Virus record (IMG/VR): IMGVR_UViG_2703718787_000020
DNA from: a virus
Lineage: Duplodnaviria > Heunggongvirae > Uroviricota > Caudoviricetes
Length of the DNA stretch: 12,113 nt
Direction: 5' to 3' (one strand)
Made by a program: the position numbers. Position 1 is the first letter of the stretch. Each line of letters starts with the position of its first letter. Shown here piece after piece: positions 9,001 through 12,000 of the stretch.

Positions 9001-12000
9001 GGCCGTAACGGGCGCTCATCTTTGGGCAATTGGAGCCCTCTGTACAGAGACCCGTTGCGGCTGACCCCGAATGATTTTGCCCGGGGCAATTGAAGCACCC
9101 CGCAAAGTGATTCGGGGTTTTTTATTGCCCGTCCACCAGCTGCACACCTGTAGCATTGATGCGTATACATTCGCCGTCAATTGCACCGTTCCGGCCCTCA
9201 CCGTCACGCGCAACAACAGAACGACCTGGCAGGCCATAACGCGCCACCTTTCGACGAACGCCATGACCAACGCTGTCACGCCGCTCATACACATTAACCC
9301 GCTCAAGAAGACCATCACGCACCATTGCTTCAAGCGTGCGCCTTGTTGATTCGAGCTGATATCGGTTGTTGTGTGAATCCATGCCATACAGCAGGTAAGC
9401 CACACCGGAGACATCAAACGGCGGACTGCCAATTTCGGCAGTAACCCACGCCAGATTGTCAGGAGTGAAGTAACTGAGGATCTCTTTTTTGTATTGCGTC
9501 AGTCTCATAGTGACCTTTCTTGTTGTAGGATGAATCCCTCATACAATAAGCCATAAGGCAAATTTTGAAAGGACAGAATCGGCGGGGTACAGATGATACG
9601 TGATGACAAGGCTGAAGCGCTGGAGAATAGCGGCCTCTGGCGGCGTGCTGCTGAACGCTGGGGAGAATTGTTCAGACAGGCAAAAACTGATGAAGAGAGG
9701 CACTATATTACCCAACGAAGGGCGCAATGCACGGCAAAAGCCACCAGACCAAAAACAACAGAGTGGGGGCATGTATGCGCCGTCAGGGCAGCAGCGACCA
9801 GAACGCTTAAAGATATGGGGATTGACCAGAAAAAAGAAGATCCTTTACGGGGCACGAAGTACAGGGGTGAAACAGGGCGAAGAGACGGAAGTTAATATGG
9901 ACACAATAACTGATAAAAAAGCCGAACAACTGGAATCTCAGGGACTATGGCGAAGAGCCGCCGCTCGTTGGCTTGACGTAATGAAAGAGGCCCACACCGA
10001 TCCGCAGCGAGAGCATATAGCCAGACGGCGGGAAATATGCCTTGCGAACTTCAGGATGCTGTAAATAAGACTGTTGACGATATGGGAATCAGACGGGATC
10101 GGCGACATTACGGGTTATGGAAATAACAGCCAGGTAAATTGGTGAATATACGGCAGGCTGCAATCAGAGCCGAACATAGCGGCCTCCGTCACCATTATCA
10201 GACAGTAGCGGTAGTCCTTCCATCACAGCAAAATGCTACCCACTTCACAGCCCCTTAGAAGCCCCTTCGGTGGGGTGAAAAATCCCCTGAAAAATCCCTG
10301 AAAAAATGCGCAAAAAAGTGCGCAAATCGATCATAAAACCGATCACAAAATCGATCACACAGACAAACAGAGCAAAGCCAGATATGACGCGGCTTACAGG
10401 GGGATAGATCACCTCAAAAAGTGCGCAAAACGAAACACAACAGCCGCGCAAAACGAAACCGATACGTGATGATCGATTTTTACGCCAGAAATGACCAGAG
10501 CAAGGGGGCTGATTTCCACCCTTGTATTTTGTGACTTACTTAAAGTAACCCGCAAAAATGAACGTTTTTACAGGGCAGAAACGAGAGTACTGGTTAACAT
10601 TCCTGGCATCACCGCAACTCACAGGGGGACCTATGACCGACCGTTCACCAACAGAGGTAATTCACGGGATTATTGAAGAGCAGGAGGAGCGCGAGTTAAT
10701 CCTCATGATTGAAGAGCAGAGAGAACGCCAGCGCAAACAGGAGTCCACGCAGCCGGACAGCGTGAGCGCTGAAAATCAGGCTGATGTGCCGTGATGGTGT
10801 CGAACTGAGTAACTTAAAGTCACTCTGTGACCAGTTTTAAACGAGTTGCAAAAAGAGCCGGAGAAAAACCACGAATCTGGGGTTTTTACTGGCGCGGTGT
10901 ACACGGTGGAACGCATAGCGTTACCTGACTTATTGCATTGTAAAAAGTTAGAAAGGCACGGCCTGTAAGATGGGATGTTGTGAGTAGTTTAAAGCTACCC
11001 GCAAATTCTTTCGTTGTGCTGGCACAGGCGGTTAAACCGTCGGTAACTGGATAATCCCCATTGGGGGAAAGCTGGCTACACCCCTCACATCTGAGGACTG
11101 ATAACGCAAAATTGCGTTGGCTGGCAGAGTGCAAATTTGCACGATGGCCTAGCCCATTGATTCTTTCGAAAACCCCCATTGGGGGAGAACGGGGGAATAA
11201 ACCTGACTCATTGATTCTTCCACAATCCTCAATTTGAGGAAGTCGGCGCGGTAACTCACTGAGATTAAAGCAAAGCTCAAATCTGAGATGGCTACATCCC
11301 TCACATCTGAGGACTGTTAACCAGCAAGCCGGAATATATTCACAAACTACGAAATTTTCGTAGTTTAACTTTCATCCAGTACATCCCCGAAAACACGGGT
11401 ATGTACGGAGTTACCGTTACCAATAATTATTCGCGAGGTGATTGTTGATGCGTGATATTCAGCAGGTTCTGGAACGCTGGGGAGCGTGGGCGGCAAATAA
11501 TCGCGAGAATGTGACCTGGTCATCCGTTGCCGCAGGATTTAAGGGGATTATTCCGGCAAAGATAACATCACGCTCACAGTGCTGTGACGATGATGCGATG
11601 GTGATATGCGGGTGCATAGCCCGCCTTTACCGGAACAATCGCGATCTGCATGACTTGCTGGTTGATTACTACGTGCTGGGGAAAACGTTTATGGCGCTGG
11701 CACATAAACATGAATGCTCTGATTCACTCATCGGAAAGCGGCTACAGAAAGCGGAAGGTGTTGTTGAAGGCATGCTGATGATGCTGGATGTGAAGCTGGA
11801 GATGGATCGGTATGTTGAGCGCGATTCAGTGACGGCATAACGCGCATAAAAAAACCGCAGCCATGAGGAAACTGCGGTGGAGAAATACGGCTTGCCAATC
11901 AATCATGAAAAACGTAATCGCCTGATAATTATGCCACGAGACAAAGGACGGTGCACCCTGAATGGTCATAATGACCACTCAGACCATCAAGGCAACCATA

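What the first reader, a model, noticed from the sequence alone, without database searches (positions are those of the whole stretch)
10980..11365. Repeat families and odd-centred palindromes in the gene-free region upstream of Q
Within about 650 bp lacking any ORF longer than 10 codons there are three copies of CCCCRTTGGGGGA (11056, 11173, and 12028 inside the last ORF), two 32-bp copies of GGCTACAYCCCTCACATCTGAGGACTGWTAAC (30/32 identical; 11074 and 11290), two copies of CATTGATTCTTYC, and at least four palindromes with A/T centres: AACGCAA-AA-TTGCGTT (11103-11118), GTGCAAATTTGCAC (11129-11142, perfect), TCCTCAA-T-TTGAGGA (11226-11240) and ACTACGAAA-T-TTTCGTAGT (11346-11364). The second X-Y pair looks like the first with about 100 bp inserted between X and Y. 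The stem CCTCA/TGAGG recurs and also resembles the ori iteron core TGAGG. This density of structure suggests operator sites, a packaging or partition site, or one or more ncRNAs; I cannot tell which.
Basis: seen in the sequence. Interest (0 to 1): 0.5.

Follow-up and report, generated by a model that had tools for sequence, protein, structure and literature searches.

The report
Satellite array of phage regulator sites
The unannotated stretch upstream of Q is a patchwork of short palindromes, some with an adjacent IHF-type motif, copied from inside the antirepressor-type genes (roi, rha, ant, kilA) of temperate phages; a family of E. coli phage satellites shares it, and it is most likely a landing pad or decoy for those phage regulators.

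Summary
The repeats and palindromes are real: 12 perfect hairpins in 386 bp against 2.2 expected. They are not REP/BIME elements. Matches occur in 1059 of 5426 E. coli genomes, with a median of one place per genome.

The window is a PICI/P4-like satellite at tRNA-Gly. The same mosaic follows a 94-aa ORF at the right end of Rpp-type PICIs, including the prototype EcCICFT073. Q is a cassette inserted into it. It is not a cos site: the island has no lambda or P2 cosN.

The units are about 50-bp copies of an internal segment of lambdoid-phage roi genes, consisting of a short palindrome plus an IHF consensus. Different roi alleles carry different palindromes, and each matches a different unit (45/49 and 29/31 in the window). 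Other palindromes match the same relative position in rha, ant, ORF6N-ant and KilA-N genes.

HK022 Roi is reported (recalled, paper not held) to bind a site inside its own gene next to an IHF site. My best reading is therefore a multi-specificity array of binding sites for helper-phage Roi/Rha/Ant proteins plus IHF, acting as a decoy or sink (confidence 0.45). Binding itself is inferred. Rivals are an antisense or structured RNA and neutral recombination debris.

The parts
10633..10794 (+). Truncated, frameshifted remnant of the conserved ~94-aa ORF (MTE.E.L.LIRR...WKKPERLRR) that precedes the array in Rpp-type PICIs
   Evidence: RefSeq annotates it as a hypothetical protein. Intact homologues are found in L002, L003, L006 and others.
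10840..10920 (+). Fragment of a KilA-N antirepressor-type gene (sense orientation). It contains the imperfect inverted repeat AAAAACCAC-6-GGGGTTTTT.
   Evidence: 69/82 identical to HK620 hkbK codons 46-73, where the inverted repeat is perfect (9-bp arms).
10968..11010 (-). Fragment of an ORF6N-type antirepressor gene (peptide KNLRVALNYSQ). It contains the near-palindrome GTAGTTTAAAGCTAC.
   Evidence: 39/43 identical to codons 167-181 of the ant gene of a P1-like plasmid.
11055..11068 (.). Palindrome TCCCCATTGGGGGA. It has the sequence of the roi class-D palindrome but no IHF head.
11074..11105 (+). 32-bp repeat, copy 1, with hairpin CCTCA-CATC-TGAGG (11083-11096). No phage counterpart was found.
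11103..11122 (-). Palindrome AACGCAAAATTGCGTT. It matches the intragenic palindrome of rha genes (peptide SQRNFA).
   Evidence: 19/19 identical to HK639 rha codons 69-75. All 6 phage hits lie in Rha genes or one unannotated gene.
11129..11142 (.). Perfect 14-bp palindrome GTGCAAATTTGCAC. Its origin was not identified.
   Evidence: It is conserved in related arrays.
11149..11202 (-). Roi-type unit 1. It has an IHF-like site AATCAATGGGCTA (11150-11162, minus strand, 1 mismatch to WATCAANNNNTTR) and the palindrome CCCCCATTGGGGG (11173-11185).
   Evidence: nhmmer E=1e-6. 29/31 identical to roi allele D (Stx1a phage type, peptide RNPPMVVFEKINNLG).
11203..11249 (-). Roi-type unit 2, 54 bp from unit 1. 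It has an IHF-like site AATCAATGAGTCA (11204-11216, minus strand, 1 mismatch) and the palindrome TCCTCAATTTGAGGA (11226-11240).
   Evidence: 45/49 identical to roi allele A1 (E2348/69 prophage type, peptide RLPQIEDCGRINGLG).
11250..11289 (+). Degenerate unit 3. The head is TAACTCACTGAGATT and the weak hairpin is CTCA-AATC-TGAG inside AGCTCAAATCTGAGAT (11274-11289).
   Evidence: nhmmer E=0.001. Related arrays carry AGCGCAAAATTGCGCT in the same slot, a compensatory T-A to G-C change.
11290..11321 (+). 32-bp repeat, copy 2, with hairpin at 11299-11312.
11344..11385 (-). Fragment of an antirepressor (KilAC/ANT) gene carrying the 23-bp palindrome AAACTACGAAATTTTCGTAGTTT (11344-11366; peptide LNYENFVV).
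   Evidence: 37/42 identical to Hafnia phage Pocitis76 ant codons 46-59 and 27/28 to Salmonella phage ST65 roi-like. 19/19 lies in the Stx2a phage F451 antirepressor.
11379..11406 (.). Imperfect hairpin GTACATCCCCG-AAAACA-CGGGTATGTAC at the left edge of the Q cassette.
   Evidence: read from the sequence
11448..11840 (+). Q antiterminator gene (Phage_antitermQ), a cassette inserted into the array.
   Evidence: Pfam PF06530, E=6e-51 and RefSeq annotation. In L002 the sequences either side of the cassette are joined by different array modules with no Q gene.
11955..12113 (+). Continuation of the non-coding mosaic to the right of Q. Palindromes are TGGTCATAATGACCA (11963-11977), TAACGAACATCGTTA (11999-12013) and CCCCGTTGGGG (12029-12039).
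   Evidence: Homologous to non-coding DNA of L002 and other PICIs. No phage-gene counterpart was found.

Best explanation
The region is part of a non-coding mosaic array carried by a family of E. coli phage satellites: Rpp-type PICIs, including EcCICFT073 and OI-51/CP-933C-type islands, and this PICI/P4-like island.

Its building blocks are short pieces of about 20-80 bp. Each is copied from the same relative place, codons ~45-75 (167-181 in a longer ant gene), within the N-terminal DNA-binding domain. The source genes are temperate-phage antirepressor-type genes: roi, rha, KilAC-ant, ORF6N-ant and KilA-N. Each piece contains that gene's embedded palindrome. In the roi-type units an IHF consensus lies about 10 bp away, and the units repeat every 54 bp.

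I propose these are binding sites for the phage proteins themselves. Roi binds a site inside its own gene, stabilised by IHF. When a phage expresses a Roi, Rha or Ant protein, the satellite DNA would bind it at the matching palindrome. The array holds one site for each of several specificity classes, so it would act as a broad-range sink or decoy. Less likely, it acts as a sensor. The array is followed only by attR in most islands, so it is not a promoter-operator for a conserved downstream gene.

Shown: the sequence homologies, the palindrome/IHF architecture, the distribution and the absence of cos. Inferred: protein binding and the physiological consequence.
For: (1) Unit-to-allele matches. 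Window unit 2 matches roi allele A1 at 45/49 and unit 1 matches allele D at 29/31. L003 units match alleles B, D, A1 and A2 at 36/40, 46/52, 46/49 and 42/53.

(2) Site architecture in roi. Within roi the segment is a palindrome at nt ~129-143 plus the only IHF consensus in the gene, at nt 153. It coincides with the hypervariable stretch of an otherwise ~90% conserved protein.

(3) Covariation with the HTH. The palindrome class tracks the variant of the putative recognition helix of the HTH:
- KRHDNVKRTIETL goes with CCTCAAATTGAGG, in E. coli and in a Klebsiella phage.
- SRPDNVKISIERL and SRHSNVKVSIDRL go with CCTGCATTGCAG(G).
- SRHDKVKQSIERL goes with CCCCCAATGGTGG.

(4) Every phage-derived fragment in the window contains the source gene's inverted repeat:
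- rha, 19/19.
- ant, 37/42, with 10-bp arms in the gene.
- KilA-N, 69/82, with 9-bp arms in the gene.
- ORF6N-ant, 39/43.

(5) Only the site-bearing ~50 bp is retained, and pieces from different alleles are concatenated head to tail. Of 52 distinct units, 43 keep a perfect palindrome and 30 keep the strict IHF consensus. In L003 all 4 perfect IHF matches in 10.3 kb fall in the array, against 0.5 expected.

(6) The class-D palindrome is perfect in the arrays (CCCCCATTGGGGG) but imperfect in the coding gene. This suggests selection for dyad symmetry once coding constraint is removed.

(7) Complementarity runs right up to a 0-2-nt centre in most palindromes. The innermost pairs cannot form in a hairpin, but they fit two-fold protein recognition of duplex DNA.

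(8) Literature. [quoted passage not shown] That Roi binds a site within its own gene beside an IHF site, with IHF stabilising the binding, is my recollection of the abstract of Clerget & Boccard 1996. The paper is not held.
Against: - There are no binding data for any of these sequences. The exact bases bound by Roi in roi are not available to me.
- In the window both roi-type IHF motifs carry one mismatch.
- Several palindromes have no identified phage counterpart: the 32-bp repeat, GTGCAAATTTGCAC and everything right of Q.
- 933W-type roi alleles lack the palindrome and the IHF site.
- Lambda, which has no annotated roi, still induces and mobilises EcCICFT073. The array is therefore dispensable for induction and transfer by that helper.
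- Five of six oriented fragments are antisense to the island's main direction of transcription, which also fits an RNA model.
- The helix-to-palindrome correlation rests on only 3-4 independent classes.
Confidence: 0.45

Rival explanations
1. The plus strand is transcribed, for example as the 3' UTR of the satellite operon. The RNA would carry stretches antisense to the mRNAs of several phage antirepressor genes. It would work like c4 of P1/P7 or sar of P22, down-regulating helper or competitor antirepressors, or acting as a structured RNA sponge.
For: - Five of six oriented fragments are antisense to the island's main transcription direction, with 31-49 nt at 88-94% identity.
- Antirepressor genes are classically controlled by antisense RNAs (general knowledge). 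The island itself carries isrK and C4 RNAs.
- The region folds strongly (z = -6.3).
- Purine-rich GGA motifs follow many hairpins on the plus strand (read).
Against: - There is no Rfam match.
- No sigma-70-like promoter or plus-strand terminator was found around the array.
- No sRNA is listed for the homologous island in the O157 Hfq-CRAC tables.
- Contiguous identity to some alleles is limited to the 13-nt palindrome, because palindromes and linkers are shuffled between units.
- The class-D palindrome is 'improved' away from the gene sequence.
- The KilA-N fragment is in sense orientation.
- Loops of 1-2 nt are poor for kissing interactions.
- In L050 the array is oriented oppositely to its neighbouring gene.
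Confidence: 0.2
2. The region is neutral debris. It would consist of scars of repeated recombination between satellites and prophages at antirepressor genes, later duplicated in tandem, with no present function.
For: - The mosaic, shuffled order of modules differs between islands.
- The upstream ORF is truncated and frameshifted in this island.
- The ant and KilA-N fragments carry 1-nt deletions.
- In L035, L036 and L050 the array abuts a further ~25 nt of roi coding sequence.
- The IHF motifs are degenerate in the window.
Against: - Debris would sample genes at random. Instead every fragment covers the gene's inverted repeat, mostly centrally rather than at a junction.
- 43 of 52 distinct units retain a perfect palindrome.
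- Several specificity classes sit side by side at a regular 54-bp spacing.
- The array is kept in about 20% of complete E. coli genomes, including functional PICIs such as EcCICFT073.
Confidence: 0.2
3. The element is a REP/BIME-like extragenic palindromic element. Hairpins in the 3' UTR would stabilise the upstream mRNA, or the IHF-plus-palindrome modules would organise DNA or insulate the island end. This would be unrelated to phage proteins.
For: - The architecture of an IHF consensus plus short palindromes, repeated and extragenic, recalls BIME-1/RIP elements (general knowledge).
- The position is directly downstream of the last gene of the PICI operon.
Against: - It is not dispersed. It is absent from about 80% of genomes, with a median of one place and a maximum of six.
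- The sequences are unrelated to REP.
- The sequences are demonstrably copied from phage genes.
Confidence: 0.07
4. The region is a packaging (cos or pac) site of the satellite.
For: It lies close to the packaging module in PICIs. Lambda cosB also combines repeated protein sites with an IHF site.
Against: - Lambda-type cosQ/cosN lies next to the rpp gene, about 1 kb upstream, in L002 and L003. It is absent from the whole island here, as is the P2/P4 cohesive-end sequence.
- The experimentally defined cos1 and cos2 of EcCICFT073 contain lambda-like cosN.
Confidence: 0.03
5. The minus strand encodes a real protein made of repeated Roi-like 18-residue segments.
For: The roi-sense frame stays stop-free for 115 codons in the window and 136 in L003. 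The 54-nt period keeps the units in frame.
Against: - The only start codon in frame is the internal ATG at 11179, with no Shine-Dalgarno sequence.
- There is no Pfam hit.
- RefSeq never annotates it.
- The open frame is not conserved in other arrays.
- Stop-free concatenation is expected when in-frame coding fragments are joined at 54-nt spacing.
Confidence: 0.03

Closest known systems
Intragenic Roi-binding site and adjacent IHF site of phage HK022/HK97 roi (Clerget & Boccard 1996, J Bacteriol 178:4077; content recalled, paper not held)
   Same: The homology is direct at the sequence level. Both have a palindrome plus WATCAANNNNTTR about 10 bp apart, in the same order and orientation. Array units are 85-94% identical to roi nt ~118-170 of different alleles.
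   Different: Here the sites lie outside any gene and inside a phage satellite. They are concatenated every 54 bp, with several allele classes side by side, and are mixed with sites from rha, ant and kilA genes. The palindromes are perfected relative to the coding copies.
BIME-1 / RIP / RIB elements of E. coli (REP palindromes flanking an IHF site)
   Same: Both are extragenic, repeated, and combine short palindromes with an IHF consensus.
   Different: The sequences are unrelated. The array is not dispersed, with a median of one locus in the ~20% of genomes that have any. It is derived from phage coding sequence.
Lambda cosB (R sites plus IHF site I1) and the cos1/cos2 sites of EcCICFT073
   Same: Both are clusters of protein sites plus IHF near the packaging genes of the same islands.
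   Different: The array has no cosN or cosQ. The true cos sites lie about 1 kb upstream beside rpp.
Protein-titrating site clusters (datA with DnaA boxes plus IHF; incA iterons of P1; crr of P4)
   Same: The proposed mode of action is the same: a non-promoter cluster of binding sites, helped by IHF, that soaks up a DNA-binding protein.
   Different: Those clusters titrate the element's own initiator. Here the sites would bind proteins of other elements (helper or competitor phages) and cover several specificities. This is an analogy only and was not tested.
Antisense control of antirepressors (c4 RNA of P1/P7, sar RNA of P22)
   Same: The target genes are antirepressors, and most fragments are antisense to them.
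   Different: There is no defined RNA gene, promoter or terminator, and no Rfam match. The complementarity is to internal coding segments rather than to ribosome-binding sites.

Membership tests
REP / BIME elements | Hundreds of dispersed copies per E. coli chromosome | tested here: not met
   Matches occur in 1059 of 5426 genomes, with a median of 1 place and a maximum of 6 per genome.
REP / BIME elements | An IHF site flanked by palindromic units (BIME-1 type architecture) | tested here: inconclusive
   The IHF consensus plus palindrome is present in the units. The sequences are unrelated to REP and derive from roi.
Lambda-type cos site | cosN cohesive-end sequence GGGCGGCGACCT with flanking cosQ | tested here: not met
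   There is no better-than-chance match in the window or island. It is present elsewhere in L002 and L003.
P2/P4-type cos site | 19-nt cohesive end GGCGAGGCGGGGAAAGCAC | tested here: not met
   0 matches with up to 3 mismatches in the 28.7-kb locus L001, which contains the whole island.
Any Rfam RNA family | Covariance-model match | tested here: not met
   At E<=1 the window gives only isrK/C4-related matches at 3349-3550 and one chance-level snoRNA match at 10175-10232, none of them in 10795-11447. No tRNA or tmRNA was found.
Roi/IHF intragenic site (roi of HK022/HK97-like phages) | Sequence homology to roi nt ~118-170 | tested here: met
   45/49 and 29/31 for the two window units, and 36/40 to 46/52 for the L003 units.
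Roi/IHF intragenic site (roi of HK022/HK97-like phages) | Short palindrome followed by the IHF consensus WATCAANNNNTTR | tested here: met
   The palindromes are perfect. 30 of 52 distinct units match the IHF consensus strictly, and the two window units have 1 mismatch each.
Roi/IHF intragenic site (roi of HK022/HK97-like phages) | Bound by Roi protein, with binding stabilised by IHF | not testable with these tools
   This needs EMSA, footprinting or ChIP. The property of the roi site itself is recalled from the literature and could not be read here.
Replication-origin iterons of this island | Match to the iteron TTGCCTCA / TGAGGCRAC | tested here: not met
   Only the 5-nt core CCTCA/TGAGG is shared.
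Protein-coding gene (pRha/Roi family) on the minus strand | Start codon with RBS, HTH region, Pfam match, conserved open frame | tested here: not met
   There is no Pfam hit at E<=1, no HTH part, and the frame is not conserved between arrays.

The most novel reading that the evidence does not exclude
Phage satellites carry a 'library' of the autogenous binding sites of helper and competitor phage antirepressor-type regulators (Roi, Rha, Ant, KilA), one site per specificity class, phased with IHF sites. The array would work as a broad-spectrum DNA decoy that captures these proteins during infection or induction. It would thereby tilt the phage's lysis-lysogeny or growth programme in the satellite's favour. 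A corollary is that a whole superfamily of phage antirepressor genes hides its own operator inside its coding sequence at a conserved position.
Probability: 0.3. Interest if true: 0.85.

Novelty: new variant of a known kind. Interest (0 to 1): 0.66.

Why it matters
E. coli PICIs such as EcCICFT073 are the model Gram-negative phage satellites. The ~0.5-1.3 kb of non-coding DNA at their right end has no assigned function in the papers I could search.

That DNA turns out to be assembled from the internal palindrome/IHF sites of helper-phage roi, rha and ant genes. This gives a concrete, testable molecular link between satellites and a poorly understood class of phage regulators. Roi and Rha are known mainly for making phages IHF-dependent.

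It also exposes a wider regularity. Five different N-terminal DNA-binding domain families of antirepressor-type genes all carry a perfect or near-perfect inverted repeat embedded at a comparable position in their coding sequence. If the array titrates these proteins, it would be a DNA-level interference or sensing mechanism distinct from the protein-level ones described so far (Stl-inducer pairs, Rpp-TerS).

Tried and rejected
- cos site: rejected.
- Known RNA families and tRNA/tmRNA: none in the region.
- Hfq-bound sRNA: Esr41 lies in OI-43, not in the island homologous to this one. The O157 Sakai Hfq-CRAC tables name no sRNA in the island next to phoQ.
- Sigma-70 promoters and terminators: nothing convincing inside the array. 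There is only a weak hairpin at 11142-11159.
- Species-wide distribution: a scan of one genome per species with the 94-aa ORF found only one locus, in Shigella. The island type appears restricted to Escherichia/Shigella, or the search patterns were too strict.
- Minus-strand coding gene: no Pfam hit and a non-conserved frame.
- Solved structure for the Roi N-terminal domain: none found, only a spurious CBS-domain hit.
- The two key papers (Clerget & Boccard 1996; Henthorn & Friedman 1995) are not held.
- Phage counterparts were sought without success for the 32-bp repeat, GTGCAAATTTGCAC and the modules right of Q.
- My early guess that the minus-strand peptide TKEFAGSFK was Rha-like was wrong. 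That stretch matches an ORF6N ant gene in another frame.
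Full report
**Context.** The window is identical to part of the chromosome of E. coli STEC2018-607. It covers most of a ~14-kb island inserted at tRNA-Gly next to the ETT2 cluster. The attL/attR repeat is ATTCCCTTCGCC(C)GCTCCAA, and attR lies 1.8 kb beyond the window. The gene order is as follows:
- integrase
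- AlpA-type HTH
- an Icd-like ORF overlapping isrK and C4 RNAs
- DUF927 primase, followed by iterons
- SSB
- ProQ/FinO
- three PerC genes
- a truncated small ORF
- the unannotated stretch in question
- a Q antiterminator (PF06530)

This is a PICI/P4-like phage satellite without capsid or rpp genes.

**Observation.** The hairpin density is far above chance: 12 perfect hairpins in 386 bp against 2.2 +/- 1.5 in shuffles, with 0 of 1000 shuffles reaching 12. Both strands fold with z of about -6. The claim of no ORF over 10 codons is wrong in mechanical terms, since there is a 97-aa ORF on the minus strand. No gene is annotated there in any RefSeq genome seen.

**Distribution.** Pieces of the 661-bp stretch occur in 1059 of 5426 complete E. 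coli genomes, with a median of one place and at most six per genome.

The matching places lie at the right end of Rpp-type PICIs, directly after a conserved ~94-aa ORF and before attR. The prototype EcCICFT073 has the array in the 555-bp gap between that ORF and phoQ. So do OI-51/CP-933C-type islands, which the literature already classes as PICIs. In those islands the sequences on either side of the window's Q cassette are joined by different array modules, with no Q gene between them. Q with ~80 bp upstream and ~110 bp downstream is therefore an insertion into the array, and 'upstream of Q' is incidental.

**Not a packaging site.** A lambda cosQ/cosN probe finds near-perfect matches in L003 and L002. 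These lie beside the terS-like rpp gene, about 1 kb upstream of the array. Nothing matches in this island, and there is no P2/P4 cohesive end either. This agrees with the published description of the EcCICFT073 cos sites as containing lambda-like cosN.

**Anatomy.** Comparison of about 25 distinct arrays from IMG/VR and RefSeq shows a mosaic of modules in variable order. The commonest module is a ~54-bp unit. It has a head TAAC-NNN-YTGAT(A)TT-YYYCGRAAA followed by a short palindrome that differs from unit to unit. Read on the minus strand, the head is the IHF consensus WATCAANNNNTTR preceded by an A/T tract.
- A profile search finds 129 units, 52 of them distinct, always co-oriented within an array. 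Of the 52, 43 have a perfect palindrome with arms of at least 5 bp in the same slot, and 30 match the strict IHF consensus.
- In L003 all four perfect IHF matches in 10.3 kb fall in the array, against 0.5 expected.
- The two window units each have one mismatch in the IHF motif.

**Origin.** A 49-bp match of window unit 2 lay inside an annotated antirepressor gene of an E2348/69 prophage. That gene is a roi homologue, with a pRha-type HTH domain and a KilAC/ANT domain, located in the nin region between P and Q.

In roi, the segment at nt ~118-170 (codons ~40-57) consists of a palindrome plus the only IHF consensus in the gene, at nt 153. It coincides with a hypervariable island in an otherwise highly conserved protein. 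Different roi alleles carry different palindromes, and each corresponds to a different unit type of the satellite arrays:

| roi allele | Palindrome | Matching unit | Identity |
|---|---|---|---|
| A1 | TCCTCAAATTGAGGA | window unit 2 | 45/49 |
| D | CCCCCAATGGTGG | window unit 1 | 29/31 |
| D | CCCCCAATGGTGG | L003 unit 2 | 46/52 |
| B | CCTGCATTGCAGG | L003 unit 1 | 36/40 |
| A2 | CCTCAAATTGAGG | L003 unit 4 | 42/53 |

The palindrome class tracks the variant of the putative recognition helix of the HTH across E. coli and Klebsiella phages. The 933W-type allele lacks both the palindrome and the IHF site.

**The rest of the region follows the same rule.** Each fragment includes the inverted repeat embedded in its source gene:
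- AACGCAAAATTGCGTT is 19/19 identical to codons 69-75 of rha genes. This is the same position in the pRha domain as the roi palindrome.
- The 23-bp palindrome at 11344-11366 belongs to a 42-nt fragment that is 37/42 identical to codons 46-59 of a KilAC antirepressor. That gene carries a perfect inverted repeat with 10-bp arms. The same palindrome sits in antirepressor genes of Salmonella, Klebsiella and Stx2a phages.
- 10968-11010 is 39/43 identical to codons 167-181 of an ORF6N-type ant gene.
- 10840-10920 is 69/82 identical to codons 46-73 of the HK620 KilA-N gene, which has a perfect inverted repeat with 9-bp arms there.

For the 32-bp repeat, GTGCAAATTTGCAC and the modules right of Q, I found no phage counterpart.

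[quoted passage not shown] From memory of the abstract of Clerget & Boccard 1996, Roi binds a site within its own gene, closely linked to an IHF site, and IHF stabilises the binding. I could not read the paper.

The palindrome-plus-IHF segment of roi is the obvious candidate for that site, and the satellite units are copies of exactly that segment. I therefore read the array as a cluster of binding sites for phage Roi/Rha/Ant-type proteins plus IHF. Several features fit protein recognition of duplex DNA better than hairpins or chance debris:
- Only the site-bearing ~50 bp is retained.
- Several specificity classes sit side by side.
- The units repeat with a 54-bp phase.
- Dyad symmetry runs right to a 0-2-nt centre.
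- The class-D palindrome is perfected in the arrays.

In most islands nothing but attR follows the array. Lambda, which has no annotated roi, still induces and mobilises EcCICFT073. For both reasons a sink or decoy role is more plausible than an operator or induction switch. Binding and its physiological consequence are inferred, not shown.

**Rivals.**
- An antisense or structured RNA is the strongest rival. Five of six oriented fragments are antisense to the island's main transcription direction, and antirepressors are classically under antisense control. Against it, there is no promoter, terminator, Rfam or Hfq-CRAC support, and unit shuffling leaves only ~13 nt of contiguous identity to some alleles.
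- Neutral recombination debris fits the mosaic order, the frameshifts and the decayed IHF motifs in this particular island. It does not explain why every fragment contains the source gene's inverted repeat, nor why most palindromes stay perfect.
- A minus-strand gene is unlikely.
- REP/BIME membership and a cos site are contradicted.

**Novelty.** I found no description of this array in the PICI papers available. The element type, a Roi/IHF site, is known from one phage gene. Its multi-allelic, concatenated, extragenic form in satellites appears new. So does the wider pattern of embedded inverted repeats across antirepressor gene families.

Noticed in passing
window 3349-3550: isrK (49 bits, just under the gathering score), C4 antisense RNA (77.7 bits) and a weak a1/b1 target match lie inside the 546-aa CDS that RefSeq annotates as 'Icd-like' (window 2135-3775). 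This looks like a P1/P7 immI-type (c4-icd-ant) or Gifsy-1 isrK-type control module. The long CDS call over the RNA genes is doubtful.
   Followed up: no
window 6670-7010; L001 15770-15900 (about 450-590 bp beyond the window end): The replication origin with TTGCCTCA / TGAGGCRAC iterons flanking an A/T-rich core lies just after the primase gene. A second, near-identical partial copy of ~130 bp lies about 5.7 kb downstream, near the right end of the island. This is reminiscent of ori and crr of P4.
   Followed up: partly
window 11854-11878 (minus strand) and 12061-12088 (minus strand): A strong intrinsic terminator on the minus strand (ACCGCAG...CTGCGGT plus T7) sits immediately after the Q stop codon. 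The only promoter-like site in the scan lies ~200 nt to its right on the same strand. This could be a convergent small RNA, as described downstream of Q in lambdoid prophages of O157. There is no Rfam match.
   Followed up: no
window 10536-10560, 10810-10826 and 10985-11006: A further small repeat family, TTAAAG-NN-ACCCGCAAA, occurs as gacttacttaaagtaacccgcaaaaat and gagtagtttaaagctacccgcaaattc, with a weaker third copy. The copy at 10985-11006 is the ORF6N-ant-derived fragment. The copy at 10536 overlaps the start of the truncated ORF.
   Followed up: no
L002 2746-2785 (+) and 3586-3636 (-); L003 3974-4037: The O26 OI-51-type PICI has two lambda-like cosN copies in inverted orientation flanking its rpp (terS-like) gene, while L003 has one. 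This matches the two cos sites reported for EcCICFT073.
   Followed up: partly
phage loci L047, L051, L053, L055-L060: Antirepressor-type genes with five different N-terminal domains (pRha-Roi, pRha-Rha, an unassigned Ant N-terminus, KilA-N, ORF6N) each carry an inverted repeat within the N-terminal domain, perfect with 5-10-bp arms in four of them and imperfect (13 of 15) in the ORF6N ant gene. This looks like a general, apparently unremarked property of this gene superfamily.
   Followed up: partly
L050 about 3700-4010 (E. coli Z0117EC0116, next to paoD): The same array also occurs in a different, degraded island next to a PerC gene. There it is oriented oppositely to its neighbour and is joined to ~25 nt more of roi coding sequence (peptide KNGVIRLP).
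   Followed up: partly
The next annotated CDS starts beyond the window.
   Followed up: yes
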